Part shown: positions 1 through 41,217 of the stretch, piece by piece | Numbering within the stretch: position 1 is the stretch's first letter | How the letters are laid out: each line of letters opens with the position of its first letter | Assembly (NCBI RefSeq): GCF_003334815.1 | Contig: NZ_QOWO01000029.1 | Reading direction: 5' to 3' (one strand) | Length of the DNA stretch: 52,109 nt | Origin: Escherichia coli | GTDB lineage: Bacteria; Pseudomonadota; Gammaproteobacteria; Enterobacterales; Enterobacteriaceae | The notes under the pieces: model-generated | The model's database searches: none | Seen by the model: the letters and a program-made list of their open reading frames with translations, nothing else | Told to the model about the DNA's origin: nothing | Made by a program: the position numbers and the translations under genes

Positions 1-75
1 CGCGAGGCATCGTCTTAACGAGGCACCGAGGCGTCGCATTCTTCAGATGGTTCAACCCTTAAGTTAGCGCTTATG
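1..75. mobile_element. Probable right terminus of an IS186 copy (IS4 family), truncated by the window edge
   Basis: Positions 49-75 read ggttcaacccttaagttagcgcttatg, the reverse complement of the IS186 terminal inverted repeat as I remember it (CATAAGCGCTAACTTAAGGGTTG...). An IS186 next to entD is the K-12 arrangement. Recalled, not aligned. Confidence 0.5.
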
Positions 76-842: not shown

Positions 843-871
843 TGCCTGATGCGCTACGCTTATCAGGCCTA
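843..871. repeat. REP (palindromic unit), first half of a BIME between fepA and entD
   Basis: Imperfect palindrome gcctgatgcgctacgcttatcaggcctac, typical of E. coli REP elements. Confidence 0.65.
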
Positions 872-907
872 CATGGTCCTGCAATATATTGAATTGGCAA
901 GATTTTT

Positions 908-3221: not shown

Positions 3222-3380
3222 TGTTTTATTCCTGCATTTTTGCCACGAATTGCAACTGTCGGGCATGGTCGTCATCAACACGACGCATCCCGCTACCGCG
3301 AAAACCTTTGATCCTGAAAGACACGCAGTGCAGTTGGTTAATTAATGTCCGCGCTTCCCACGGCGCGCCATTACGCTATT

Positions 3381-3418
3381 GCAAATGCAAATAGTTATCA
3401 ATAATATTATCAATATAT
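3381..3418. promoter_or_regulatory. Fur-box-like AT-rich operator in the divergent fepA/fes promoter region
   Basis: gcaaatgcaaatagttatcaataatattatcaatat resembles the Fur consensus GATAATGATAATCATTATC. It sits between divergent iron-uptake genes. Confidence 0.55.
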
Positions 3419-3463
3419 TTCTGCAATCAATGAAAAATTGCACAGTAAACATGGGGTTATGGT

Positions 3464-4666
3464 GTGACGGCGTTAAAAGTAGGAAGTGAGAGCTGGTGGC
3501 AGTCGAAACATGGCCCGGAATGGCAGCGTCTGAATGACGAAATGTTTGAGGTCACTTTCTGGTGGCGTGATCCCCAAGGTTCTGAAGAATACTCGACGAT
3601 AAAGCGCGTATGGGTCTACATCACTGGTGTGACCGATCACCATCAGAACAGCCAGCCCCAGTCGATGCAGCGAATTGCAGGCACTAACGTCTGGCAGTGG
3701 ACGACACAACTCAATGCCAACTGGCGCGGCAGCTACTGCTTTATTCCCACCGAACGCGATGACATTTTTTCTGTACCATCCCCCGATCGCCTCGAATTGC
3801 GCGAAGGCTGGCGAAAACTATTACCCCAGGCGATAGCCGATCCGCTGAACCTACAAAGCTGGAAAGGCGGGCGAGGGCACGCTGTTTCTGCACTCGAAAT
3901 GCCGCAAGCGCCTCTGCAACCGGGATGGGATTGTCCGCAAGCGCCAGAAATACCTGCCAAAGAAATTATCTGGAAAAGTGAACGGTTGAAAAAGTCACGG
4001 CGTGTATGGATTTTTACCACCGGCGATGCAACAGCAGAAGAACGCCCGCTGGCAGTTTTGCTCGATGGCGAATTTTGGGCGCAAAGTATGCCCGTCTGGC
4101 CAGTGCTGACTTCGCTGACCCATCGTCAGCAACTTCCTCCCGCCGTGTATGTGTTGATCGACGCTATCGACACCACGCACCGCGCCCACGAACTGCCGTG
4201 TAATGCGGATTTCTGGCTCGCAGTACAGCAAGAGTTATTACCCCTGGTGAAAGCTATTGCCCCTTTTAGCGATCGTGCCGATCGCACCGTGGTTGCCGGG
4301 CAGAGTTTTGGTGGGCTTTCCGCGCTGTATGCCGGACTGCACTGGCCTGAACGCTTTGGCTGTGTATTAAGCCAGTCAGGATCGTACTGGTGGCCGCATC
4401 GGGGCGGGCAGCAAGAGGGCGTGTTACTTGAAAAGCTAAAAGCTGGTGAAGTTAGCGCCGAAGGTCTGCGCATTGTGCTGGAAGCGGGTATTCGCGAGCC
4501 GATGATCATGCGGGCCAATCAGGCGCTGTATGCGCAATTACACCCCATAAAAGAATCCATTTTCTGGCGTCAGGTTGACGGCGGACATGATGCGCTTTGT
4601 TGGCGCGGTGGCTTGATGCAGGGGCTAATCGACCTCTGGCAACCACTTTTCCATGACAGGAGTTGA
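3464..4666 (+). CDS. fes: Enterochelin (ferric enterobactin) esterase
   Basis: 400-aa ORF starting at GTG 3464, with esterase GxSxG motif (GQSFGG). An alternative internal ATG (MFEV...) would give 374 aa. Confidence 0.88.
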   Translation: MTALKVGSESWWQSKHGPEWQRLNDEMFEVTFWWRDPQGSEEYSTIKRVWVYITGVTDHHQNSQPQSMQRIAGTNVWQWTTQLNANWRGSYCFIPTERDDIFSVPSPDRLELREGWRKLLPQAIADPLNLQSWKGGRGHAVSALEMPQAPLQPGWDCPQAPEIPAKEIIWKSERLKKSRRVWIFTTGDATAEERPLAVLLDGEFWAQSMPVWPVLTSLTHRQQLPPAVYVLIDAIDTTHRAHELPCNADFWLAVQQELLPLVKAIAPFSDRADRTVVAGQSFGGLSALYAGLHWPERFGCVLSQSGSYWWPHRGGQQEGVLLEKLKAGEVSAEGLRIVLEAGIREPMIMRANQALYAQLHPIKESIFWRQVDGGHDALCWRGGLMQGLIDLWQPLFHDRS

Positions 4667-4668
4667 AT

Positions 4669-4887
4669 ATGGCATTCAGTAATCCCTTCGATGATCCGCA
4701 GGGAGCGTTTTACATATTGCGCAATGCGCAGGGGCAATTCAGTCTGTGGCCGCAACAATGCGTCTTACCGGCAGGCTGGGACATTGTGTGTCAGCCGCAG
4801 TCACAGGCGTCCTGCCAGCAGTGGCTGGAAGCCCACTGGCGTACTCTGACACCGACGAATTTTACCCAGTTGCAGGAGGCACAATGA
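4669..4887 (+). CDS. ybdZ: MbtH-like protein (72 aa), NRPS adenylation-domain partner
   Basis: MAFSNPFDDPQGAFYILRNAQGQFSLWP... with conserved Trp residues. Its stop overlaps the entF start (ATGA at 4884-4887). Confidence 0.85.
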   Translation: MAFSNPFDDPQGAFYILRNAQGQFSLWPQQCVLPAGWDIVCQPQSQASCQQWLEAHWRTLTPTNFTQLQEAQ

Positions 4888-7800
4888 GCCAGCATTTACC
4901 TTTGGTCGCCGCACAGCCCGGCATCTGGATGGCAGAAAAACTGTCAGAATTACCCTCCGCCTGGAGCGTGGCGCATTACGTTGAGTTAACCGGAGAGGTT
5001 GATTCGCCATTACTGGCCCGCGCGGTGGTTGCCGGACTAGCGCAAGCAGATACGCTGCGGATGCGTTTTACGGAAGATAACGGCGAAGTCTGGCAGTGGG
5101 TCGATGATGCGCTGACGTTCGAACTGCCAGAAATTATCGACCTACGAACCAACATTGATCCGCACGGTACTGCGCAGGCATTAATGCAGGCGGATTTGCA
5201 ACAAGATCTGCGCGTCGATAGCGGTAAACCACTGGTCTTTCATCAGCTGATACAGGTGGCGGATAACCGCTGGTACTGGTATCAGCGTTATCACCATTTG
5301 CTGGTCGATGGCTTTAGTTTCCCGGCCATTACCCGCCAGATCGCCAATATTTACTGCACATGGCTGCGTGGCGAACCAACGCCTGCTTCGCCATTTACGC
5401 CTTTCGCTGATGTAGTGGAAGAGTACCAGCAATACCGCGAAAGCGAAGCCTGGCAGCGTGATGCGGCATTCTGGGCAGAACAGCGTCGTCAACTGCCGCC
5501 GCCCGCGTCACTTTCTCCGGCACCTTTACCGGGGCGCAGCGCCTCGGCAGATATTCTGCGCCTGAAACTGGAATTTACCGACGGGGAATTCCGCCAGCTG
5601 GCTACGCAACTTTCAGGTGTGCAGCGTACCGATTTAGCCCTTGCGCTGGCAGCCTTGTGGCTGGGGCGATTGTGCAATCGTATGGACTACGCCGCCGGAT
5701 TTATCTTTATGCGTCGACTGGGCTCGGCGGCGCTGACGGCTACCGGACCCGTGCTCAACGTTTTGCCGTTGGGTATTCACATTGCGGCGCAAGAAACGCT
5801 GCCGGAACTGGCAACCCGACTGGCAGCACAACTGAAAAAAATGCGTCGTCATCAACGTTACGATGCCGAACAAATTGTCCGTGACAGCGGGCGAGCGGCA
5901 GGTGATGAACCGCTGTTTGGTCCGGTACTCAATATCAAGGTATTTGATTACCAACTGGATATTCCTGATGTTCAGGCGCAAACCCATACCCTGGCAACCG
6001 GTCCGGTTAATGACCTTGAACTGGCCCTGTTCCCGGATGTACACGGTGATTTGAGTATTGAGATCCTCGCCAATAAACAGCGTTACGATGAGCCAACGTT
6101 AATCCAGCATGCTGAACGCCTGAAAATGCTGATTGCCCAGTTCGCCGCGGATCCGGCGCTGTTGTGCGGCGATGTCGATATTATGCTGCCAGGTGAGTAT
6201 GCGCAGCTGGCGCAGCTCAACGCCACTCAGGTTGAGATTCCAGAAACCACGCTTAGCGCGCTGGTGGCAGAACAAGCGGCAAAAACACCGGATGCTCCGG
6301 CGCTGGCAGATGCGCGTTACCTGTTCAGCTATCGGGAAATGCGCGAGCAGGTGGTGGCGCTGGCGAATCTGCTGCGTGAGCGCGGCGTTAAACCAGGGGA
6401 CAGCGTGGCGGTGGCACTACCGCGCTCGGTCTTTTTGACCCTGGCACTCCATGCGATAGTTGAAGCTGGAGCGGCCTGGCTACCGCTGGATACCGGCTAT
6501 CCGGACGATCGCCTGAAAATGATGCTGGAAGATGCGCGTCCGTCGCTGTTAATTACCACCGACGATCAACTGCCGCGCTTTAGCGATGTTCCCAATTTAA
6601 CAAGCCTTTGCTATAACGCCCCGCTTACACCGCAGGGCAGTGCGCCGCTGCAACTTTCACAACCGCATCACACGGCTTATATCATCTTTACCTCTGGCTC
6701 CACCGGCAGGCCGAAAGGGGTAATGGTCGGGCAGACGGCTATCGTCAACCGCCTGCTTTGGATGCAAAATCATTATCCGCTTACAGGCGAAGATGTCGTT
6801 GCCCAAAAAACGCCGTGCAGTTTTGATGTCTCGGTGTGGGAGTTTTTCTGGCCGTTTATCGCAGGGGCAAAACTGGTGATGGCTGAACCGGAAGCGCACC
6901 GCGACCCGCTCGCTATGCAGCAATTCTTTGCCGAATATGGCGTAACGACCACGCACTTTGTGCCGTCGATGCTGGCGGCATTTGTTGCCTCGCTGACGCC
7001 GCAAACCGCTCGCCAGAGTTGCGCGACGTTGAAACAGGTTTTCTGTAGTGGTGAGGCCTTACCGGCTGATTTATGCCGCGAATGGCAACAGTTAACTGGC
7101 GCGCCGTTGCATAATCTATATGGCCCGACGGAAGCGGCGGTAGATGTCAGCTGGTATCCGGCTTTTGGCGAGGAACTGGCACAGGTGCGCGGCAGCAGTG
7201 TGCCGATTGGTTATCCGGTATGGAATACGGGTCTGCGTATTCTTGATGCGATGATGCATCCGGTGCCGCCGGGTGTGGCGGGTGATCTCTATCTCACTGG
7301 CATTCAACTGGCGCAGGGCTATCTCGGACGCCCCGATCTGACCGCCAGCCGCTTTATTGCCGATCCTTTTGCCCCAGGTGAACGGATGTACCGTACCGGA
7401 GACGTTGCCCGCTGGCTGGATAACGGCGCGGTGGAGTACCTCGGGCGCAGTGATGATCAGCTAAAAATTCGCGGGCAGCGTATCGAACTGGGCGAAATCG
7501 ATCGCGTGATGCAGGCGCTGCCGGATGTCGAACAAGCCGTTACCCACGCCTGTGTGATTAACCAGGCGGCTGCCACCGGTGGTGATGCGCGTCAATTGGT
7601 GGGCTATCTGGTGTCGCAATCGGGCCTGCCGTTGGATACCAGCGCATTGCAGGCGCAGCTTCGTGAAACATTGCCACCACATATGGTACCGGTGGTTCTG
7701 CTGCAACTTCCACAGTTACCACTTAGCGCCAACGGCAAGCTGGATCGCAAAGCCTTACCGTTGCCTGAACTGAAGGCACAAGCGCCAGGGCGTGCGCCGA

Positions 7801-8765
7801 AAGCGGGCAGTGAAACGATTATCGCCGCGGCATTCTCGTCGTTGCTGGGGTGTGACGTGCAGGATGCCGATGCTGATTTCTTCGCGCTTGGCGGTCATTC
7901 GCTACTGGCAATGAAACTGGCAGCGCAGTTAAGTCGGCAGGTTGCCCGCCAGGTGACGCCGGGGCAAGTGATGGTCGCGTCAACTGTCGCCAAACTGGCA
8001 ACGATTATTGATGCTGAAGAAGACAGCACCCGGCGTATGGGATTCGAAACCATTCTGCCGTTGCGTGAAGGTAATGGCCCGACGCTGTTTTGTTTCCATC
8101 CTGCGTCCGGTTTTGCCTGGCAGTTCAGCGTGCTCTCGCGTTATCTCGATCCACAATGGTCGATTATCGGCATTCAGTCACCGCGCCCCAATGGCCCCAT
8201 GCAGACGGCGGCAAACCTGGATGAAGTCTGCGAAGCGCATCTGGCAACGTTACTTGAACAACAACCGCATGGCCCTTATTACCTGCTGGGGTATTCCCTT
8301 GGCGGTACGCTGGCGCAGGGTATTGCGGCGCGACTGCGTGCCCGTGGCGAACAGGTGGCATTTCTTGGCTTGCTGGATACCTGGCCGCCAGAAACGCAAA
8401 ACTGGCAGGAAAAAGAAGCTAATGGTCTGGACCCGGAAGTGCTGGCGGAGATTAACCGCGAACGCGAGGCCTTCCTGGCAGCACAGCAGGGAAGTACTTC
8501 AACGGAGTTGTTTACCACCATTGAAGGCAACTACGCTGATGCTGTGCGCCTGCTGACGACTGCTCATAGCGTACCGTTTGACGGTAAAGCGACGCTGTTT
8601 GTTGCTGAACGCACACTTCAGGAAGGTATGAGTCCCGAACGCGCCTGGTCGCCGTGGATAGCGGAGCTGGATATCTATCGTCAGGATTGTGCGCATGTGG
8701 ATATTATCTCTCCAGGGACGTTTGAAAAAATTGGGCCGATTATTCGCGCAACGCTAAACAGGTAA
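4884..8765 (+). CDS. entF: Enterobactin synthase component F, NRPS module C-A-PCP-TE (1293 aa)
   Basis: Adenylation core motifs FTSGSTGRPKG and YRTGD, PCP motif LGGHSLLA, thioesterase GYSLGG. Start placed at MSQHLPLVAAQPGIW. Confidence 0.95.
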   Translation: MSQHLPLVAAQPGIWMAEKLSELPSAWSVAHYVELTGEVDSPLLARAVVAGLAQADTLRMRFTEDNGEVWQWVDDALTFELPEIIDLRTNIDPHGTAQALMQADLQQDLRVDSGKPLVFHQLIQVADNRWYWYQRYHHLLVDGFSFPAITRQIANIYCTWLRGEPTPASPFTPFADVVEEYQQYRESEAWQRDAAFWAEQRRQLPPPASLSPAPLPGRSASADILRLKLEFTDGEFRQLATQLSGVQRTDLALALAALWLGRLCNRMDYAAGFIFMRRLGSAALTATGPVLNVLPLGIHIAAQETLPELATRLAAQLKKMRRHQRYDAEQIVRDSGRAAGDEPLFGPVLNIKVFDYQLDIPDVQAQTHTLATGPVNDLELALFPDVHGDLSIEILANKQRYDEPTLIQHAERLKMLIAQFAADPALLCGDVDIMLPGEYAQLAQLNATQVEIPETTLSALVAEQAAKTPDAPALADARYLFSYREMREQVVALANLLRERGVKPGDSVAVALPRSVFLTLALHAIVEAGAAWLPLDTGYPDDRLKMMLEDARPSLLITTDDQLPRFSDVPNLTSLCYNAPLTPQGSAPLQLSQPHHTAYIIFTSGSTGRPKGVMVGQTAIVNRLLWMQNHYPLTGEDVVAQKTPCSFDVSVWEFFWPFIAGAKLVMAEPEAHRDPLAMQQFFAEYGVTTTHFVPSMLAAFVASLTPQTARQSCATLKQVFCSGEALPADLCREWQQLTGAPLHNLYGPTEAAVDVSWYPAFGEELAQVRGSSVPIGYPVWNTGLRILDAMMHPVPPGVAGDLYLTGIQLAQGYLGRPDLTASRFIADPFAPGERMYRTGDVARWLDNGAVEYLGRSDDQLKIRGQRIELGEIDRVMQALPDVEQAVTHACVINQAAATGGDARQLVGYLVSQSGLPLDTSALQAQLRETLPPHMVPVVLLQLPQLPLSANGKLDRKALPLPELKAQAPGRAPKAGSETIIAAAFSSLLGCDVQDADADFFALGGHSLLAMKLAAQLSRQVARQVTPGQVMVASTVAKLATIIDAEEDSTRRMGFETILPLREGNGPTLFCFHPASGFAWQFSVLSRYLDPQWSIIGIQSPRPNGPMQTAANLDEVCEAHLATLLEQQPHGPYYLLGYSLGGTLAQGIAARLRARGEQVAFLGLLDTWPPETQNWQEKEANGLDPEVLAEINREREAFLAAQQGSTSTELFTTIEGNYADAVRLLTTAHSVPFDGKATLFVAERTLQEGMSPERAWSPWIAELDIYRQDCAHVDIISPGTFEKIGPIIRATLNR

Positions 8766-8780
8766 ATTAATATTATTTAT

Positions 8781-8818
8781 AAACCCATAATTACAGAAAA
8801 TAATTATGGGTTTTTTAT
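8781..8818 (+). terminator. Rho-independent terminator downstream of entF
   Basis: Hairpin aaacccataatta / taattatgggttt followed by a T-run. Confidence 0.7.
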
Positions 8819-8980
8819 TTGTTTGATTTATAGGTTTGATGAATATTTCTCTTAAATAGAGTGAATGTTGCATTCAGTGGAAGGAATTTACAAACTTCAG
8901 CTTCGGATAATTATCACCAACTGGTAAAGTGAGCGCCGTGGAGATTTCCCCCTATTGGACTCATTTTCAGGTTATACCCC

Positions 8981-10114
8981 ATGTCATCACTGAATATTAA
9001 ACAGGGAAGTGACGCTCATTTTCCCGATTATCCTCTGGCGTCGCCCAGTAATAATGAAATTGATTTACTTAATCTAATCTCAGTTTTATGGCGGGCCAAA
9101 AAAACGGTCATGGCGGTCGTTTTTGCGTTTGCCTGCGCAGGCTTGCTGATCTCTTTCATCCTGCCGCAAAAATGGACCAGCGCGGCGGTTGTCACGCCTC
9201 CAGAACCTGTTCAGTGGCAAGAGTTGGAGAAATCATTCACTAAGCTTCGTGTGCTGGATCTGGATATCAAAATTGATCGTACAGAAGCATTTAACCTGTT
9301 TATCAAGAAGTTTCAGTCGGTTAGCTTGCTGGAAGAGTACCTGCGTTCATCACCTTATGTGATGGACCAATTAAAAGAGGCGAAAATCGACGAACTGGAT
9401 TTGCATCGCGCAATTGTCGCATTGAGCGAAAAAATGAAAGCGGTTGATGACAATGCCAGTAAGAAAAAAGATGAACCGTCACTGTATACCTCCTGGACGC
9501 TAAGTTTTACCGCGCCAACCAGTGAAGAGGCGCAGACCGTTTTGAGCGGGTATATCGATTATATCTCTACGTTGGTGGTGAAAGAGTCGCTAGAAAACGT
9601 CCGTAATAAACTGGAGATCAAAACCCAGTTTGAAAAAGAAAAACTGGCTCAGGATCGCATTAAAACGAAAAATCAACTTGATGCAAACATTCAGCGCCTC
9701 AATTATTCACTCGACATTGCCAACGCGGCAGGAATTAAAAAGCTCGTTTACAGTAATGGTCAGGCCGTTAAAGATGACCCCGATTTTTCTATTTCTCTCG
9801 GTGCAGACGGTATTGAACGCAAACTGGAAATAGAAAAAGCGGTCACTGACGTTGCGGAACTGAACGGTGAATTACGTAATCGGCAGTATCTTGTCGAGCA
9901 ATTAACAAAAGCACATGTCAACGATGTGAATTTTACGCCGTTTAAATATCAGTTAAGCCCGTCATTGCCAGTGAAAAAAGACGGTCCGGGTAAGGCGATT
10001 ATTGTGATCCTTTCCGCGTTGATCGGCGGGATGGTGGCTTGTGGTGGCGTGCTGTTGCGCTATGCGATGGCATCCAGAAAACAGGATGCCATGATGGCAG
10101 ACCACTTAGTTTAA
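8981..10114 (+). CDS. fepE: Wzz-like polysaccharide co-polymerase family protein (377 aa)
   Basis: Track ORF of the expected length and position, with an N-terminal transmembrane segment. Confidence 0.85.
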   Translation: MSSLNIKQGSDAHFPDYPLASPSNNEIDLLNLISVLWRAKKTVMAVVFAFACAGLLISFILPQKWTSAAVVTPPEPVQWQELEKSFTKLRVLDLDIKIDRTEAFNLFIKKFQSVSLLEEYLRSSPYVMDQLKEAKIDELDLHRAIVALSEKMKAVDDNASKKKDEPSLYTSWTLSFTAPTSEEAQTVLSGYIDYISTLVVKESLENVRNKLEIKTQFEKEKLAQDRIKTKNQLDANIQRLNYSLDIANAAGIKKLVYSNGQAVKDDPDFSISLGADGIERKLEIEKAVTDVAELNGELRNRQYLVEQLTKAHVNDVNFTPFKYQLSPSLPVKKDGPGKAIIVILSALIGGMVACGGVLLRYAMASRKQDAMMADHLV

Positions 10115-10926
10115 CTATTTGCGGTTGAAGGTGCCGTTCGTCCGAGCGGCACCACAAGCGGCGTTCCGGCAACTGGATCGTCAATGATCATGCAGCGCAG
10201 ACCATAAATGCGCTCAATCAGTTCAGCAGTGACAATCTCCTTCGGCGCTCCCTGAGCAACAATTTTCCCTTCCCGCAATGCAATCAAATGGCTGGCGTAA
10301 CGACAGGCCTGATTAAGATCGTGCAGCACCGCCGCCAGGGTATAGCCTTTTTCGCGGTTCAGTTCGCTTAACAACTCCAGCAAATCAATCTGATGACTGA
10401 TATCCAGCCAGGTCGTGGGTTCGTCGAGCAGCATAATTGCCGTTTCCTGGGCCAGCACCATCGCGATCCACGCTCGCTGGCGTTGTCCGCCAGAAAGGGT
10501 ATCCACGCTTTGATCTGCCAGATGAGTTATTCCCGTGGCCTGCATTGCTTTCGTTACCGCTTCTTCATCCTCTTTGCGCCAGCGGGTAAACAGCGGTTGA
10601 TGCGGATAACGTCCACGCGCCACCAGCTCCTGCACGGTGATATCGCCCGGCGTGGTAGCATTTTGCGCCAACAGACCAATCCGGCGTGCAACCTCTTTAC
10701 TGGCGTAATGTTGAATGTGCTCGCCATCCAGCCAGACATGCCCATGAGCAGGCGTCATCAGGCGGCTTAAGGTACGCAGTAACGTGGATTTACCGCAGCC
10801 ATTTGGCCCGATAATTGCCGTGAAGTGACCATCAGGTATTTCTACAGTCAGATTTTCCGCAACGGTATATTTGCCATATCCCAGGGTTAACTGTTCGCCG
10901 CGCAAACGGGCTACTGATTCGGTCAT
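10111..10926 (-). CDS. fepC: Ferric enterobactin ABC transporter ATPase (271 aa)
   Basis: Walker A GPNGCGKST and ABC signature LSGGQRQR. Start placed at MTESVARLRGEQL. Its stop overlaps the convergent fepE stop. Confidence 0.92.
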   Translation of the reverse strand: MTESVARLRGEQLTLGYGKYTVAENLTVEIPDGHFTAIIGPNGCGKSTLLRTLSRLMTPAHGHVWLDGEHIQHYASKEVARRIGLLAQNATTPGDITVQELVARGRYPHQPLFTRWRKEDEEAVTKAMQATGITHLADQSVDTLSGGQRQRAWIAMVLAQETAIMLLDEPTTWLDISHQIDLLELLSELNREKGYTLAAVLHDLNQACRYASHLIALREGKIVAQGAPKEIVTAELIERIYGLRCMIIDDPVAGTPLVVPLGRTAPSTANS

Positions 10927-11915
10927 TTTTTGCGAGACTCCTGAATTAACAAGACGATAAGGTAAATACCGCCGAGGCTGACGGTAACGACGCCAACCGG
11001 AAGTTGATACGGCATAAACAGTTGTTGGGCGCAGAGATCGGCCGCCAGCAGTAACAGCGCCCCGCATAGCGCCGCCTGGGTTAGCCCCCAGCGAGCGGTG
11101 CCGCTAATGCGTCGGGCAATGTGCGGTGCGACTAAAGCAATAAAGGAAATCGGCCCGGCAAGCGCTGTTGCCGCAGCGGTAAGCACCACTGCAACCAGCA
11201 TCATTAACAGACGCGAACGTTCGACGCTGACGCCCAGCGCACACGCGGTATCATCGCCCATTTCCAGCAAGCGCATCCGGCGTACCAGTAAGGCGGCGGC
11301 AATGAGCATCAATATAATGATGGGTGCGGAAGGCGAGGTTTTTGCCCACGTCAGGCCGTTGAGCGATCCGGCATTCCACAAACCTGCTGTTAGCGCCGTT
11401 TCTAAAGACGCTTTCAGCAACAGCCAGGTATTAAAGGCCACCAGCATGGCGCGAACGCCGATACCGATAATAATCAACCGAAAGGTGTCGATGCCGTTGC
11501 GCCAGGCGAGCAGCCAGACCAGCAGCGAAGTGACAATGCCGCCCACCATTGCTGACAGCGCGATAGCCGTCAGGTCCTGACCAAACAGCACCATCGCCAC
11601 CAGCACGCCGCTCCACGCCCCGGTGTTAAAGCCCATTACGTCAGGGCTGCCGAGCGGGTTACGCATCAGCGACTGAAAAATCGCGCCACTGACGCCCAGT
11701 GCTGCGCCAATCAACAGCGCCATCAGCACGCGTGGTAAACGCCATTCGGTGACCACCATCGTCATACTGCGCGGCGCATCGCCCATCAGCGCGGCGAATA
11801 CCTGCGAGGTTTCCAGCGTGACGGCACCGCTGCGTAATCCCCAGATACCTGCAACCACACAGGCGGAAACCAGCAGCAAACAGGTGATGAGTAATCGGCG
11901 AGAGACGTAAATCAT
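10923..11915 (-). CDS. fepG: Ferric enterobactin ABC transporter permease (330 aa)
   Basis: Polytopic membrane ORF of the FecCD family, 4-nt overlap with fepC. Confidence 0.9.
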   Translation of the reverse strand: MIYVSRRLLITCLLLVSACVVAGIWGLRSGAVTLETSQVFAALMGDAPRSMTMVVTEWRLPRVLMALLIGAALGVSGAIFQSLMRNPLGSPDVMGFNTGAWSGVLVAMVLFGQDLTAIALSAMVGGIVTSLLVWLLAWRNGIDTFRLIIIGIGVRAMLVAFNTWLLLKASLETALTAGLWNAGSLNGLTWAKTSPSAPIIILMLIAAALLVRRMRLLEMGDDTACALGVSVERSRLLMMLVAVVLTAAATALAGPISFIALVAPHIARRISGTARWGLTQAALCGALLLLAADLCAQQLFMPYQLPVGVVTVSLGGIYLIVLLIQESRKK

Positions 11916-12927: not shown

Positions 12928-12955
12928 TGATAATGAAATTAATTATCGTTATCGA
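12928..12955. promoter_or_regulatory. Fur box in the divergent fepD/entS promoter
   Basis: gataatgaaattaattatcgttatc is a close match to the Fur consensus. Confidence 0.65.
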
Positions 12956-15406: not shown

Positions 15407-15562
15407 AGAACGGCGCAGGACATCACATTGCGCTTATGCGAATCCATCAATAATGCTTCTCATTTTCATTGTAACCACAACCAGATGCAACCCCGAGTTG
15501 CAGATTGCGTTACCTCAAGAGTTGACATAGTGCGCGTTTGCTTTTAGGTTAGCGACCGAAAA

Positions 15563-15585
15563 TATAAATGATAATCATTATTAAA
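15563..15585. promoter_or_regulatory. Fur box in the divergent fepB/entC promoter
   Basis: ataaatgataatcattatt is a near-perfect match to GATAATGATAATCATTATC, about 30 bp upstream of entC. Confidence 0.75.
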
Positions 15586-34694: not shown

Positions 34695-34923
34695 TTTTAC
34701 TCCATGTCGTCGGTGCTGCGAGTGTCGCAGATAAACATACCCAAAAGAAAACCCTCACCGTCAGGCGGCGAGGGTTTAACTCACATGATGATACTGACTG
34801 TTGCTCACTCTTTGAAGTGATTTGCGTCACATTCAGGGAATTCCTCAATGCAGCGCATTATGTATAAATCTTAATCGCCTTGGTTTATGGAAGACGAATT
34901 AGCGTGTTTTGTAAATCAGATGA

Positions 34924-40308: not shown

Positions 40309-41217
40309 TTATTCTTCGCGGATGCCGGAAAGTTCTGCACGGGAGAGCACCAGACGGGCGCGATCGATAACCGGACCGTCCACCATCTTGCCGTTCAGGG
40401 AAACCACGCCGAGGCCTTCGCGAGCGGCGGCTTCAGCGGCTTCTACGACGCGGCGGGCGTGATCCACTTCTTTCTGGGTCGGTGCGTAGAGGTTGTGCAG
40501 CAGATCAATCTGACGCGGGTTGATCAGCGATTTGCCGTCAAAGCCCAGCTGTTTGATGTGGGCGGCTTCTTGCAGAAATCCGGCTTCGTTGTTAGCGTCG
40601 GAATAGACGGTATCGAACGCCTGAATACCCGCAGAGCGCGCGGCCTGCAAAATGGAACAGCGTGCGAACAGCAGTTCAGTTCCTTCCGGGGAGCGTTCTG
40701 TACGCAGGTTGCGCACATAGTCTTCTGCACCGAGGGCGATACCGATCAAACGCTCGGAAGCGTGAGCGATTTCCACTGCGCGGGTAATCCCCAGCGGAGA
40801 TTCAATCGCCGCCAGCAGGCCGGTGCTGCCGGGTTCACGACCACAGGCTTTTTCGATACGCAGGATCTCTTTTTCAATATCCAGAACATCCTGAGCGGTA
40901 TCGGTTTTCGGCAGACGCACAACGTCCGCACCACCGCGAACGACGGCTTCCAGGTCGTTAACACCCCATTCGGAATCCAGCGCGTTGACACGCACAATGG
41001 TTTCAATATCGCGATACAGCGGATGTTGCAGCGCGTGGTAAACCATGCGGCGGGCGGTGTCTTTTTCACGCAATGCTACGGAGTCTTCGAGGTCAAACAT
41101 CAGGGCATCAGCCGGGTAGATGAAGGAGTTGCTGACCATCGCGGCATTGGCACCAGGCACAAACAACATGCTGCGGCGGGTGCGAGTTTTACGTTGTTGC
41201 AGCGAAGCGGAAATCAT
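40309..41217 (-). CDS. citE: Citrate lyase beta subunit, citryl-CoA lyase (302 aa)
   Basis: HpcH/CitE-family ORF. Start at [11 protein letters not shown], overlapping citD by 4 nt. Confidence 0.9.

What the first reader, a model, noticed from the sequence alone, without database searches (positions are those of the whole stretch)
4669..4887. MbtH-like ybdZ is translationally coupled to entF
The 72-aa MbtH-like ORF ends with the overlap ATGA on the entF start codon. That arrangement would tie the level of the adenylation-domain chaperone to that of the NRPS. The ORF is short enough to be missed by ORF-length filters.
Basis: partly seen in the sequence, partly recalled or inferred. Interest (0 to 1): 0.25.

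Follow-up and report, generated by a model that had tools for sequence, protein, structure and literature searches.

The report
Known ybdZ–entF four-base gene overlap
This is the well-known E. coli gene ybdZ, a small helper protein for the enterobactin synthetase EntF, whose stop codon overlaps the entF start codon (ATGA); that layout is the commonest one between neighbouring E. coli genes, so the finding is correct but ordinary, and coupled translation remains likely but untested.

Summary
A 72-codon ORF (4669-4887, +) ends in TGA inside ATGA (4884-4887), and that ATG starts a 1293-codon ORF (4884-8765). The short ORF matches Pfam MbtH (E = 4.9e-21) and is 100% identical to YbdZ in PDB 5JA1, the crystal structure of the EntF-YbdZ complex. 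The long ORF is EntF. The window is E. coli chromosome, and RefSeq annotates both genes at these coordinates. The junction is present in 5391 of 5426 complete genomes.

Translational coupling is plausible but not shown. A -4 ATGA overlap is the commonest junction in E. coli. Four of 28 same-strand pairs in this window have it, and a published table already lists ybdZ-entF at -4. entF carries its own strong Shine-Dalgarno (AGGAGG, second strongest of 46 starts here), and no significant masking RNA structure is predicted, so independent initiation is also possible.

In 34 related fes-MLP-entF loci the junction is always tight (-8 to +12). Only 15 have the -4 overlap, and 16 have a stop codon, GGAG and then the start 8-12 nt downstream. 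I found no paper that tests the coupling.

Verdict: already known and low interest.

The parts
3222..3463 (.). fepA-fes divergent control region. It contains an AT-rich hexamer array (about 3381-3417) that resembles Fur-binding sequence.
   Evidence: The sequence is. The best match to the 19-bp Fur consensus here has 6 mismatches (3381-3399), so the assignment as the Fur-regulated bidirectional promoter rests on established knowledge of the ent system and on Fur-dependent repression of fes-ybdZ-entF reported in PMC8910356. It is inferred, not shown here.
3464..4666 (+). fes, enterochelin esterase. Its stop TGA (4664-4666) lies 2 nt before the ybdZ ATG.
   Evidence: The translation is. NCBIfam NF007758 matches at E = 1.1e-211. 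RefSeq annotates the same coordinates.
4658..4662 (+). Shine-Dalgarno AGGAG for ybdZ. It lies inside the last codons of fes, 6 nt before the ATG.
   Evidence: It is read directly from the sequence. The predicted SD:anti-SD duplex is -6.9 kcal/mol.
4669..4887 (+). ybdZ, a 72-aa MbtH-like protein and the partner of the EntF adenylation domain.
   Evidence: Pfam MbtH matches at E = 4.9e-21. The protein is 100% identical to PDB 5JA1 chain B, 'Enterobactin biosynthesis protein YbdZ'. RefSeq annotates a ybdZ CDS here.
4874..4879 (+). Shine-Dalgarno AGGAGG for entF. It is encoded within ybdZ codons 69-71 (CAG GAG GCA), 4 nt before the entF ATG.
   Evidence: It is read from the sequence. The predicted duplex is -10.3 kcal/mol, rank 2 of 46 gene starts in the window. 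GCAGGAGG is invariant in 9 Escherichia sequences.
4884..4887 (+). ATGA, where the entF start codon and the ybdZ stop codon overlap (-4 junction).
   Evidence: The sequence is invariant across E. coli, E. albertii, E. whittamii and cryptic Escherichia. The junction region is at least 95% identical in 5391 of 5426 complete E. coli genomes.
4884..8765 (+). entF, the 1293-aa C-A-PCP-TE non-ribosomal peptide synthetase that activates serine.
   Evidence: NCBIfam NF007605 (EntF equivalog) scores 2812 bits against a cutoff of 2400. The full length matches PDB 5JA1 chain A.
8781..8820 (+). Terminator-like hairpin (13-bp stem) followed by a T run, 16 nt after the entF stop.
   Evidence: It was found by the pattern scan. 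The fold is -13.4 kcal/mol with z = -2.35. Function is not shown.

Best explanation
The locus is the known fes-ybdZ-entF part of the E. coli enterobactin cluster. ybdZ encodes a 72-aa MbtH-like protein that binds the EntF adenylation domain 1:1 and is needed for enterobactin synthesis. All three genes lie on one iron-regulated mRNA with almost no spacers: fes/ybdZ at +2 nt and ybdZ/entF at -4 nt. The last five ybdZ codons double as the entF ribosome-binding site (AGGAGG plus a 4-nt spacer). The most likely mechanism is as follows. A ribosome that terminates ybdZ at UGA sits on the entF AUG with the SD just behind it. A fraction of these ribosomes re-initiate on entF (termination-reinitiation). 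Free 30S subunits can also start entF directly, because the SD is strong and the site is not buried in structure. The expected result is partial rather than obligatory coupling, which helps keep YbdZ synthesis at least as high as EntF synthesis. Shown here: the identities of the genes, the overlap, the SD and the conservation of a tight junction. Inferred: the reinitiation itself and its share of entF translation.
For: Identity is established by Pfam MbtH at E = 4.9e-21, 100% identity to 5JA1_B YbdZ and 5JA1_A EntF, the NCBIfam EntF equivalog at 2812 bits, and RefSeq annotation at the same coordinates. The geometry (ATGA at 4884-4887 and AGGAGG at 4874-4879) comes. The SD duplex of -10.3 kcal/mol ranks second of 46 starts in the window. 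GCAGGAGG-NN-CAATGAGCC is invariant in 9 Escherichia sequences while flanking ybdZ codons vary. All 34 fes-MLP-entF loci examined keep the MLP stop within -8 to +12 nt of the entF start, each with an SD-like motif upstream (predicted duplex energies range from -11.6 to -4.0 kcal/mol). Precedent supports coupling: -4 is the commonest E. coli junction, and 4 of 5 tested native E. coli -4 pairs showed coupling that mostly depended on the SD (PMC6728339; PMC10666635). The functional rationale is the 1:1 MLP:A-domain stoichiometry and the loss of enterobactin on ybdZ deletion (PMC7593251). Natural MLP-A-domain fusions exist (4GR4, 6N8E; PMC10510592).
Against: No experiment on this gene pair was found. 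The strong SD and an initiation region no more structured than shuffled controls (z = +1.69; z = +0.28 for the 292-nt context) would allow coupling-independent initiation. One tested E. coli -4 pair (bioBF) showed no coupling at all. In 16 of 34 orthologous loci the overlap is replaced by a stop codon, GGAG and a start 8-12 nt downstream. Huber et al. regard that spacing as likely independent initiation, so the overlap itself is not required for the system to work. Distant MLP genes overlap by 4 nt with whatever gene is next to them (glyoxalase, ABC ATPase, thioesterase). In 2 of 6 the A-domain gene lies upstream of the MLP gene. This pattern points to general operon compaction.
Confidence: 0.6

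Rival explanations
1. The overlap has no functional consequence. It is a by-product of operon compaction and of mutational turnover of the ybdZ stop codon. entF is translated essentially by de novo initiation at its own strong ribosome-binding site, and YbdZ and EntF levels are set independently by the two sites on a shared mRNA.
For: The entF SD ranks second of 46 in the window, and local accessibility is at the median. The initiation region is not more structured than shuffles. Sixteen of 34 orthologous loci have no overlap. On an EntF neighbour-joining tree the -4 state appears in at least three separate clades, with +9 to +12 in the outgroup Erwiniaceae. In Raoultella the change from the Klebsiella-type TAAGGAG to TCAAGGAG is a single-base insertion that removes the stop and runs the frame into the TGA of ATGA. 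entF begins ATGA in nearly all lineages whether or not there is an overlap. bioBF is a precedent for an uncoupled -4 pair. Distant MLP genes overlap unrelated neighbours.
Against: Most tested E. coli -4 pairs are coupled, and a ribosome terminating on top of an AUG next to a strong SD is the best-documented setting for reinitiation. The junction is invariant across the genus Escherichia. Short overlaps are reported to be enriched among subunits of complexes (PMC10666635 abstract), and YbdZ-EntF is such a complex.
Confidence: 0.3
2. Coupling works by RNA unfolding. A ybdZ-internal segment (4775-4788) pairs with the entF start region (4880-4893) and masks the AUG, and ribosomes translating ybdZ open this pairing.
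For: There is an inverted repeat of 14 nt with 12 pairs. The pairing appears in the minimum-energy and centroid folds of a 151-nt context. Predicted accessibility of the entF start region falls from 0.49 to 0.26 when 130 nt of upstream sequence are included, and Escherichia loci give lower values (0.25-0.29) than the non-overlapping lineages (mean 0.47).
Against: The pairing is replaced by another helix in the 292-nt fold. Fold energies are not below shuffles (z = -0.60 and +0.28). Eleven percent of dinucleotide shuffles and 26% of synonymous recodings of ybdZ give equal or lower accessibility. Covariation is not above the shuffle control (126 of 500, with one compensatory change and three disrupted cells). 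The Escherichia sequences are not independent samples.
Confidence: 0.07
3. The 72-codon ORF is a chance ORF and not a gene.
For: None. It is short, and the mechanical ORF list contains many spurious ORFs of similar size.
Against: The ORF matches Pfam MbtH at E = 4.9e-21. Its sequence is identical to a crystallised protein bound to EntF. Orthologues sit in the same position in 33 other loci. Deletion phenotypes are reported in E. coli and Salmonella.
Confidence: 0.01

Closest known systems
E. coli K-12 ybdZ (b4511) - entF (b0586) in the fes-ybdZ-entF(-fepE) transcription unit
   Same: It is the same locus. The junction sequence is 100% identical to K-12-derived and many other E. coli genomes. 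The proteins are identical to PDB 5JA1 chains B and A. The pair is already tabulated with an intergenic distance of -4 in the supplement of PMC10666635.
   Different: Nothing differs in sequence. The only element not documented in the literature I could search is an experimental measurement of coupling for this pair.
Native E. coli -4 (ATGA) gene pairs shown to be coupled by termination-reinitiation (hyfHI, astDB, ydbH-ynbE, menDH; Huber et al. 2019, 2023)
   Same: All share a co-directional 4-nt ATGA overlap and an SD for the downstream gene inside the upstream coding sequence. Here, as in several of those pairs, the products form a complex.
   Different: Those pairs were tested with stop-codon and SD mutants. 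ybdZ-entF was not. The entF SD is unusually strong, which makes a mixed mode like menDH (about 60% coupled) or an uncoupled case like bioBF a realistic outcome.
MbtH-like proteins of other NRPS clusters (MbtH, PA2412, TxtH) and MLP-A-domain fusions (SlgN1, ObiF1)
   Same: They share the same fold family (PDB sequence matches at E = 2e-15 to 3e-5) and the same role as a 1:1 partner of adenylation domains. The fusions achieve fixed stoichiometry by covalent linkage.
   Different: Gene order and neighbours are not conserved. In 6 distant loci the MLP gene overlapped a glyoxalase, ABC ATPase or thioesterase gene, followed the A-domain gene rather than preceding it (2 loci), or stood alone with spacers of more than 120 nt (2 loci). 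The 'MLP immediately upstream of its NRPS' layout is a feature of the enterobactin-type fes-MLP-entF clusters.

Membership tests
MbtH-like protein (Pfam PF03621) | Significant match to the MbtH profile over nearly its full length | tested here: met
   E = 4.9e-21 and 74.3 bits. Residues 4-54 match model positions 2-52 of 53.
MbtH-like protein (Pfam PF03621) | Signature residues: N-terminal NPF, the SLWP and PxGW motifs with their invariant Trp residues, and a later W...P motif | tested here: met
   The translation shows N5-P6-F7, S25-L26-W27-P28, P34-A35-G36-W37 and W57...P62. N5, P6, F7, L26, W27, P28, P34, A35, G36, W37 and P62 are invariant in the 8-sequence orthologue alignment. The motif definition is from my own knowledge of the family.
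MbtH-like protein (Pfam PF03621) | Small stand-alone protein of about 70 aa encoded in an NRPS cluster | tested here: met
   The protein is 72 aa and lies between fes and entF.
MbtH-like protein (Pfam PF03621) | Physical binding to an NRPS adenylation domain | tested here: met
   Both window proteins are sequence-identical to the two chains of crystal structure 5JA1, EntF with YbdZ (described in PMC10510592). This is met by identity to a solved complex, not by a new experiment.
Translationally coupled gene pair (termination-reinitiation type) | Co-directional genes on one transcript with a -4 or -1 overlap, or a gap of only a few nt | tested here: met
   There is a -4 ATGA overlap. No room exists for a promoter or terminator between the genes. 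The genes are reported as one transcription unit.
Translationally coupled gene pair (termination-reinitiation type) | SD motif for the downstream gene inside the upstream gene (important in 4 of 5 E. coli pairs tested) | tested here: met
   AGGAGG lies at 4874-4879 with a predicted duplex of -10.3 kcal/mol.
Translationally coupled gene pair (termination-reinitiation type) | Downstream translation falls when upstream translation is stopped before the junction, at equal mRNA level | not testable with these tools
   This needs a reporter or chromosomal mutant experiment. No published test was found.
Translationally coupled gene pair (RNA-unfolding type) | Stable, conserved secondary structure that sequesters the downstream SD or start codon | tested here: inconclusive
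   A candidate pairing (4775-4788 with 4880-4893) exists. It is lost in a longer context, is not more masking than the null models (11% and 26% of nulls are as low), and has no significant covariation.

The most novel reading that the evidence does not exclude
The tight MLP-entF junction may be under selection to keep YbdZ synthesis at or above EntF synthesis, through reinitiation and perhaps assembly of the complex at the mRNA. On this reading, the repeated switches between a 'stop-GGAG-start' (+9 to +12) layout and a -4/-8 overlap in separate Enterobacterales lineages would be adaptive tuning of that ratio rather than neutral drift. The last five YbdZ residues would then be a by-product of encoding the entF ribosome-binding site.
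Probability: 0.2. Interest if true: 0.3.

Novelty: already known. Interest (0 to 1): 0.1.

Why it matters
It matters little beyond housekeeping. ybdZ, its MbtH-like nature, its complex with EntF and the 4-nt overlap are all on record. There is one practical point for anyone engineering or deleting ybdZ. The entF ribosome-binding site lies inside the last five ybdZ codons, and entF translation may partly depend on ribosomes arriving through ybdZ. Deletions or stop mutations in ybdZ can therefore lower EntF, and that effect could be mistaken for loss of the helper protein. If coupling were measured, this pair would be a clean natural case of a chaperone-like partner placed upstream of its client, but that would extend a well-established principle rather than open a new one.

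Tried and rejected
1. I considered a masking RNA structure at the entF start. The 121-nt fold is less stable than 194 of 200 shuffles. A long-range pairing found by the repeat search shows up in one context but not in a longer one. It is not significant against dinucleotide or synonymous-recoding nulls or by covariation. I rejected it as unsupported, although it is not excluded.

2. I considered TTG 4663 as an alternative ybdZ start, which would give a TTGA overlap with the fes stop. I rejected it because there is no spacer after the SD and all orthologues, RefSeq and the PDB chain start at ATG 4669.

3. I considered the in-frame GTG at 4746 as an alternative entF start (1339 aa). I rejected it because the conserved EntF N-terminus (M-x-x-x-LPLVAAQPGIWMAE) begins at the ATG in all lineages.

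4. Literature searches for a direct test of ybdZ-entF coupling found none. The key YbdZ papers (PMC2974439, PMC6050124) and Li et al. 2014 (PMC4006352) are not held.

5. I looked for ribosome-profiling values for ybdZ and entF in the supplements of PMC10746267. The terms did not occur in the held files.

6. NCBIfam has no model that hits YbdZ. This reflects the library and is not evidence against the family assignment.

7. The 19-bp Fur consensus gives only a 6-mismatch match in the fepA-fes region, so the promoter and operator assignment is taken from the literature and not shown here.

Full report
**What is in the sequence**

At 4669-4887 on the + strand there is an ATG-initiated ORF of 72 codons ending in TGA. 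The TGA (4885-4887) shares two bases with an ATG at 4884-4886, which opens a 1293-codon ORF ending at 8765.

Directly upstream, a 400-codon ORF (3464-4666) ends in TGA two bases before the short ORF's ATG. AGGAG (4658-4662) lies 6 nt before the short ORF's ATG, and AGGAGG (4874-4879) lies 4 nt before the long ORF's ATG.

**Identity**

- The short protein matches Pfam MbtH (PF03621) at E = 4.9e-21 over nearly the whole model.
- It is 100% identical to chain B of PDB 5JA1, 'Enterobactin biosynthesis protein YbdZ'.
- The long protein reaches 2812 bits on the NCBIfam EntF equivalog (cutoff 2400) and matches chain A of the same PDB entry over its full length.
- The upstream protein is enterochelin esterase Fes (E = 1.1e-211).
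- A 1-kb query across the junction is 100% identical to many E. coli chromosomes and is found in 5415 of 5426 complete genomes. RefSeq annotates fes, ybdZ and entF at exactly these coordinates.

The window is E. coli chromosome, running from entD to beyond tatE.

**What is already known**

YbdZ is the cognate MbtH-like protein of EntF. Its deletion abolishes enterobactin production, it enhances EntF solubility and activity, and MLP:A-domain complexes work at 1:1 stoichiometry (PMC7593251, citing Felnagle 2010 and Schomer 2017/2018). The EntF-YbdZ crystal structure is reviewed in PMC10510592. The Salmonella orthologue is induced about 200-fold by iron restriction and is needed for growth then (PMC11176087). 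fes-ybdZ-entF(-fepE) is treated as one Fur-repressed unit (PMC8910356). The supplement of Huber et al. 2023 already lists 'ybdZ / entF, distance -4'. The object and its geometry are therefore not new.

**How unusual the overlap is**

It is not unusual.

- In this window, 4 of 28 same-strand neighbour pairs have an ATGA overlap: ybdZ/entF, fepD/fepG, fepG/fepC and citD/citE. One more pair (entB/entA) overlaps by 1 nt, and seven more have gaps of 14 nt or less.
- Genome-wide, -4 ATGA is the commonest junction in E. coli, and 24% of unidirectional pairs lie between -8 and +6 (PMC10666635).

**Is entF translationally coupled to ybdZ?**

This is the interpretive step, and I could only gather indirect evidence.

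Evidence in favour:
- The geometry is the classic one for termination-reinitiation.
- Of five native E. coli -4 pairs tested, three were strictly coupled, one about 60% and one not at all. Removing the SD cut reinitiation by 60-100% in four of the five (PMC6728339). Coupling falls steeply with distance (PMC10666635).
- Within the genus Escherichia the string GCAGGAGG-NN-CAATGAGCC is invariant while neighbouring ybdZ codons change.

Evidence for caution:
- entF has the second strongest predicted SD:anti-SD duplex of 46 gene starts in the window (-10.3 kcal/mol). Its local structure is at the median.
- The 121-nt region around its start folds less well than 194 of 200 shuffles.
- A candidate long-range pairing between 4775-4788 and the entF AUG disappears in a longer context. 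It is not more masking than 11% of dinucleotide shuffles or 26% of synonymous recodings, and it shows no significant covariation.

So nothing indicates that the entF site needs an upstream ribosome to be opened, and it looks competent for direct initiation. My best estimate is partial coupling.

**Comparative evidence**

A pattern scan of one genome per species returned 29 usable Enterobacterales loci. Four more came from exact-protein look-ups. In all 34 loci (33 plus the window) the MLP gene sits between fes and entF, and its stop lies within -8 to +12 nt of the entF start.

| Junction | Loci | Lineages |
|---|---|---|
| -4 | 15 | Escherichia, three Raoultella, Yokenella, two 'Enterobacter' isolates (one as GTGA) and three look-up loci without organism names |
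| -8 | 2 | Trabulsiella, Enterobacteriaceae bacterium 89 |
| +1 | 1 | Enterobacter sp. kpr-6 |
| +8 to +12 | 16 | Klebsiella, R. terrigena, Izhakiella, Erwinia, Superficieibacter, Pluralibacter and others. In 15 of the 16 the stop codon is followed at once, or after one base, by GGAG or GGAA (T[AG]A-GGAG...ATG); the sixth-teenth, L038, reads TGAGGTG |

- MLPs in the spaced lineages are mostly 66-67 aa. In the -4 lineages they are 70-72 aa, and the extra codons are the entF SD and spacer read through.
- Comparing Klebsiella (TCC TAA GGAG) with Raoultella planticola (CC TCA AGG AG) shows that a single inserted base can remove the stop and run the frame into the TGA of ATGA.
- entF begins ATGA in almost every lineage regardless of overlap.
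- On a neighbour-joining tree of EntF, the -4 state falls in at least three separate clades, and the Erwiniaceae outgroup has +9 to +12. The tree has no bootstrap and should be treated as indicative.

What is conserved is therefore proximity plus an SD, not the overlap itself.

**Distant MbtH-like genes**

Six distant homologues (34-45% identity) were located on contigs.
- Four are in tightly packed operons with -4 or -1 overlaps on one or both sides, but the downstream neighbour is a glyoxalase, an ABC ATPase, a thioesterase or an unknown small ORF.
- In two of them the A-domain or NRPS gene is upstream of the MLP gene.
- Two MLP genes stand alone, with spacers of more than 120 nt.

The sample is small. 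It indicates that 'MLP upstream of and overlapping its NRPS' is specific to enterobactin-type clusters, and that -4 overlaps around MLP genes reflect general operon compaction.

**Verdict**

The MbtH assignment and the overlap are correct and already known. Coupling is a reasonable, precedent-based inference that remains untested for this pair, and the sequence suggests it would be partial rather than obligatory. I give about 0.6 to partial coupling by reinitiation, 0.3 to essentially independent initiation with a functionally neutral overlap, and under 0.1 to structure-mediated coupling. Interest is low.

One practical consequence follows. The entF ribosome-binding site lies inside the last five ybdZ codons, so ybdZ mutations can have cis effects on EntF.

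Noticed in passing
window 8781-8820 (+): A 13-bp hairpin followed by a T run lies 16 nt after the entF stop (fold -13.4 kcal/mol, z = -2.35). The literature lists fepE in the same operon as fes-ybdZ-entF. The reported RNA fold-changes fall off along the unit (-5.04, -4.96, -3.10, -1.69; PMC8910356), which would fit partial termination here and a separate fepE promoter.
   Followed up: partly
window 4775-4788 and 4880-4893 (+): An inverted repeat (12 of 14 pairs) could pair a ybdZ-internal segment with the entF start codon. It appears in a 151-nt fold but not in a 292-nt fold. It is not significant against the shuffle, synonymous-recoding or covariation controls.
   Followed up: yes
window 10923-10926, 11912-11915, 41214-41217 (all - strand) and 10111-10114: There are three more ATGA start/stop overlaps in the window: fepG/fepC, fepD/fepG and citD/citE. 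All three pairs encode subunits of complexes. The convergent genes fepE and fepC also overlap by 4 nt at their 3' ends.
   Followed up: partly
L007 (NZ_GG670150.1, 223 bp): A 223-bp scaffold labelled Lactobacillus johnsonii ATCC 33200 encodes residues 8-72 of YbdZ at 98% identity to E. coli. This is almost certainly E. coli contamination in that assembly. A partial 'Acinetobacter baumannii' protein record (P0027) is 100% identical to E. coli YbdZ over the part that aligns and looks like the same kind of error.
   Followed up: no
Supplementary file 3 of PMC10666635 (entry NGHB#561): The published E. coli table of gene-pair distances marks ybdZ-entF as 'CMPLX not' (not a complex), although PDB 5JA1 is a structure of that complex. 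Their enrichment of overlaps among complex subunits is therefore slightly under-counted.
   Followed up: no
window 24313-25473 (+) and 26076-27296 (-): ybdL (386 aa) and ybdN (406 aa) are intact ORFs in the window. Both are marked 'frameshifted' pseudogenes in the otherwise near-identical ER1709 record. The window differs from that record by four substitutions before position 24722 and by small indels after it, so the window comes from a different, probably better-assembled, strain.
   Followed up: partly
window 34740-34848 (-), 47834-48276 (+), 29434-29527 (+), 865-906 (-): Four Rfam matches pass the gathering thresholds. They are the rnk leader (124.9 bits), a cspA-type thermoregulator model covering cspE and its leader (124.1 bits), sRNA STnc70 upstream of ahpC (42.7 bits), and ES036/CssrF in the fepA-entD spacer (40.5 bits).
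   Followed up: no
window 12929-12947, 12935-12953, 15564-15582, 15449-15467: The best matches to the 19-bp Fur-box consensus in the window (3-4 mismatches) lie in the fepD-entS and fepB-entC divergent regions. The fepA-fes region that drives ybdZ and entF has only a 6-mismatch match (3381-3399) inside an AT-rich hexamer array.
   Followed up: partly
E. coli complete genomes: Two of the 5424 matches to the fes-ybdZ-entF junction lie on records typed as plasmids. Eleven of 5426 complete genomes have no match to the 1-kb query at all, which suggests loss of this part of the ent cluster.
   Followed up: no
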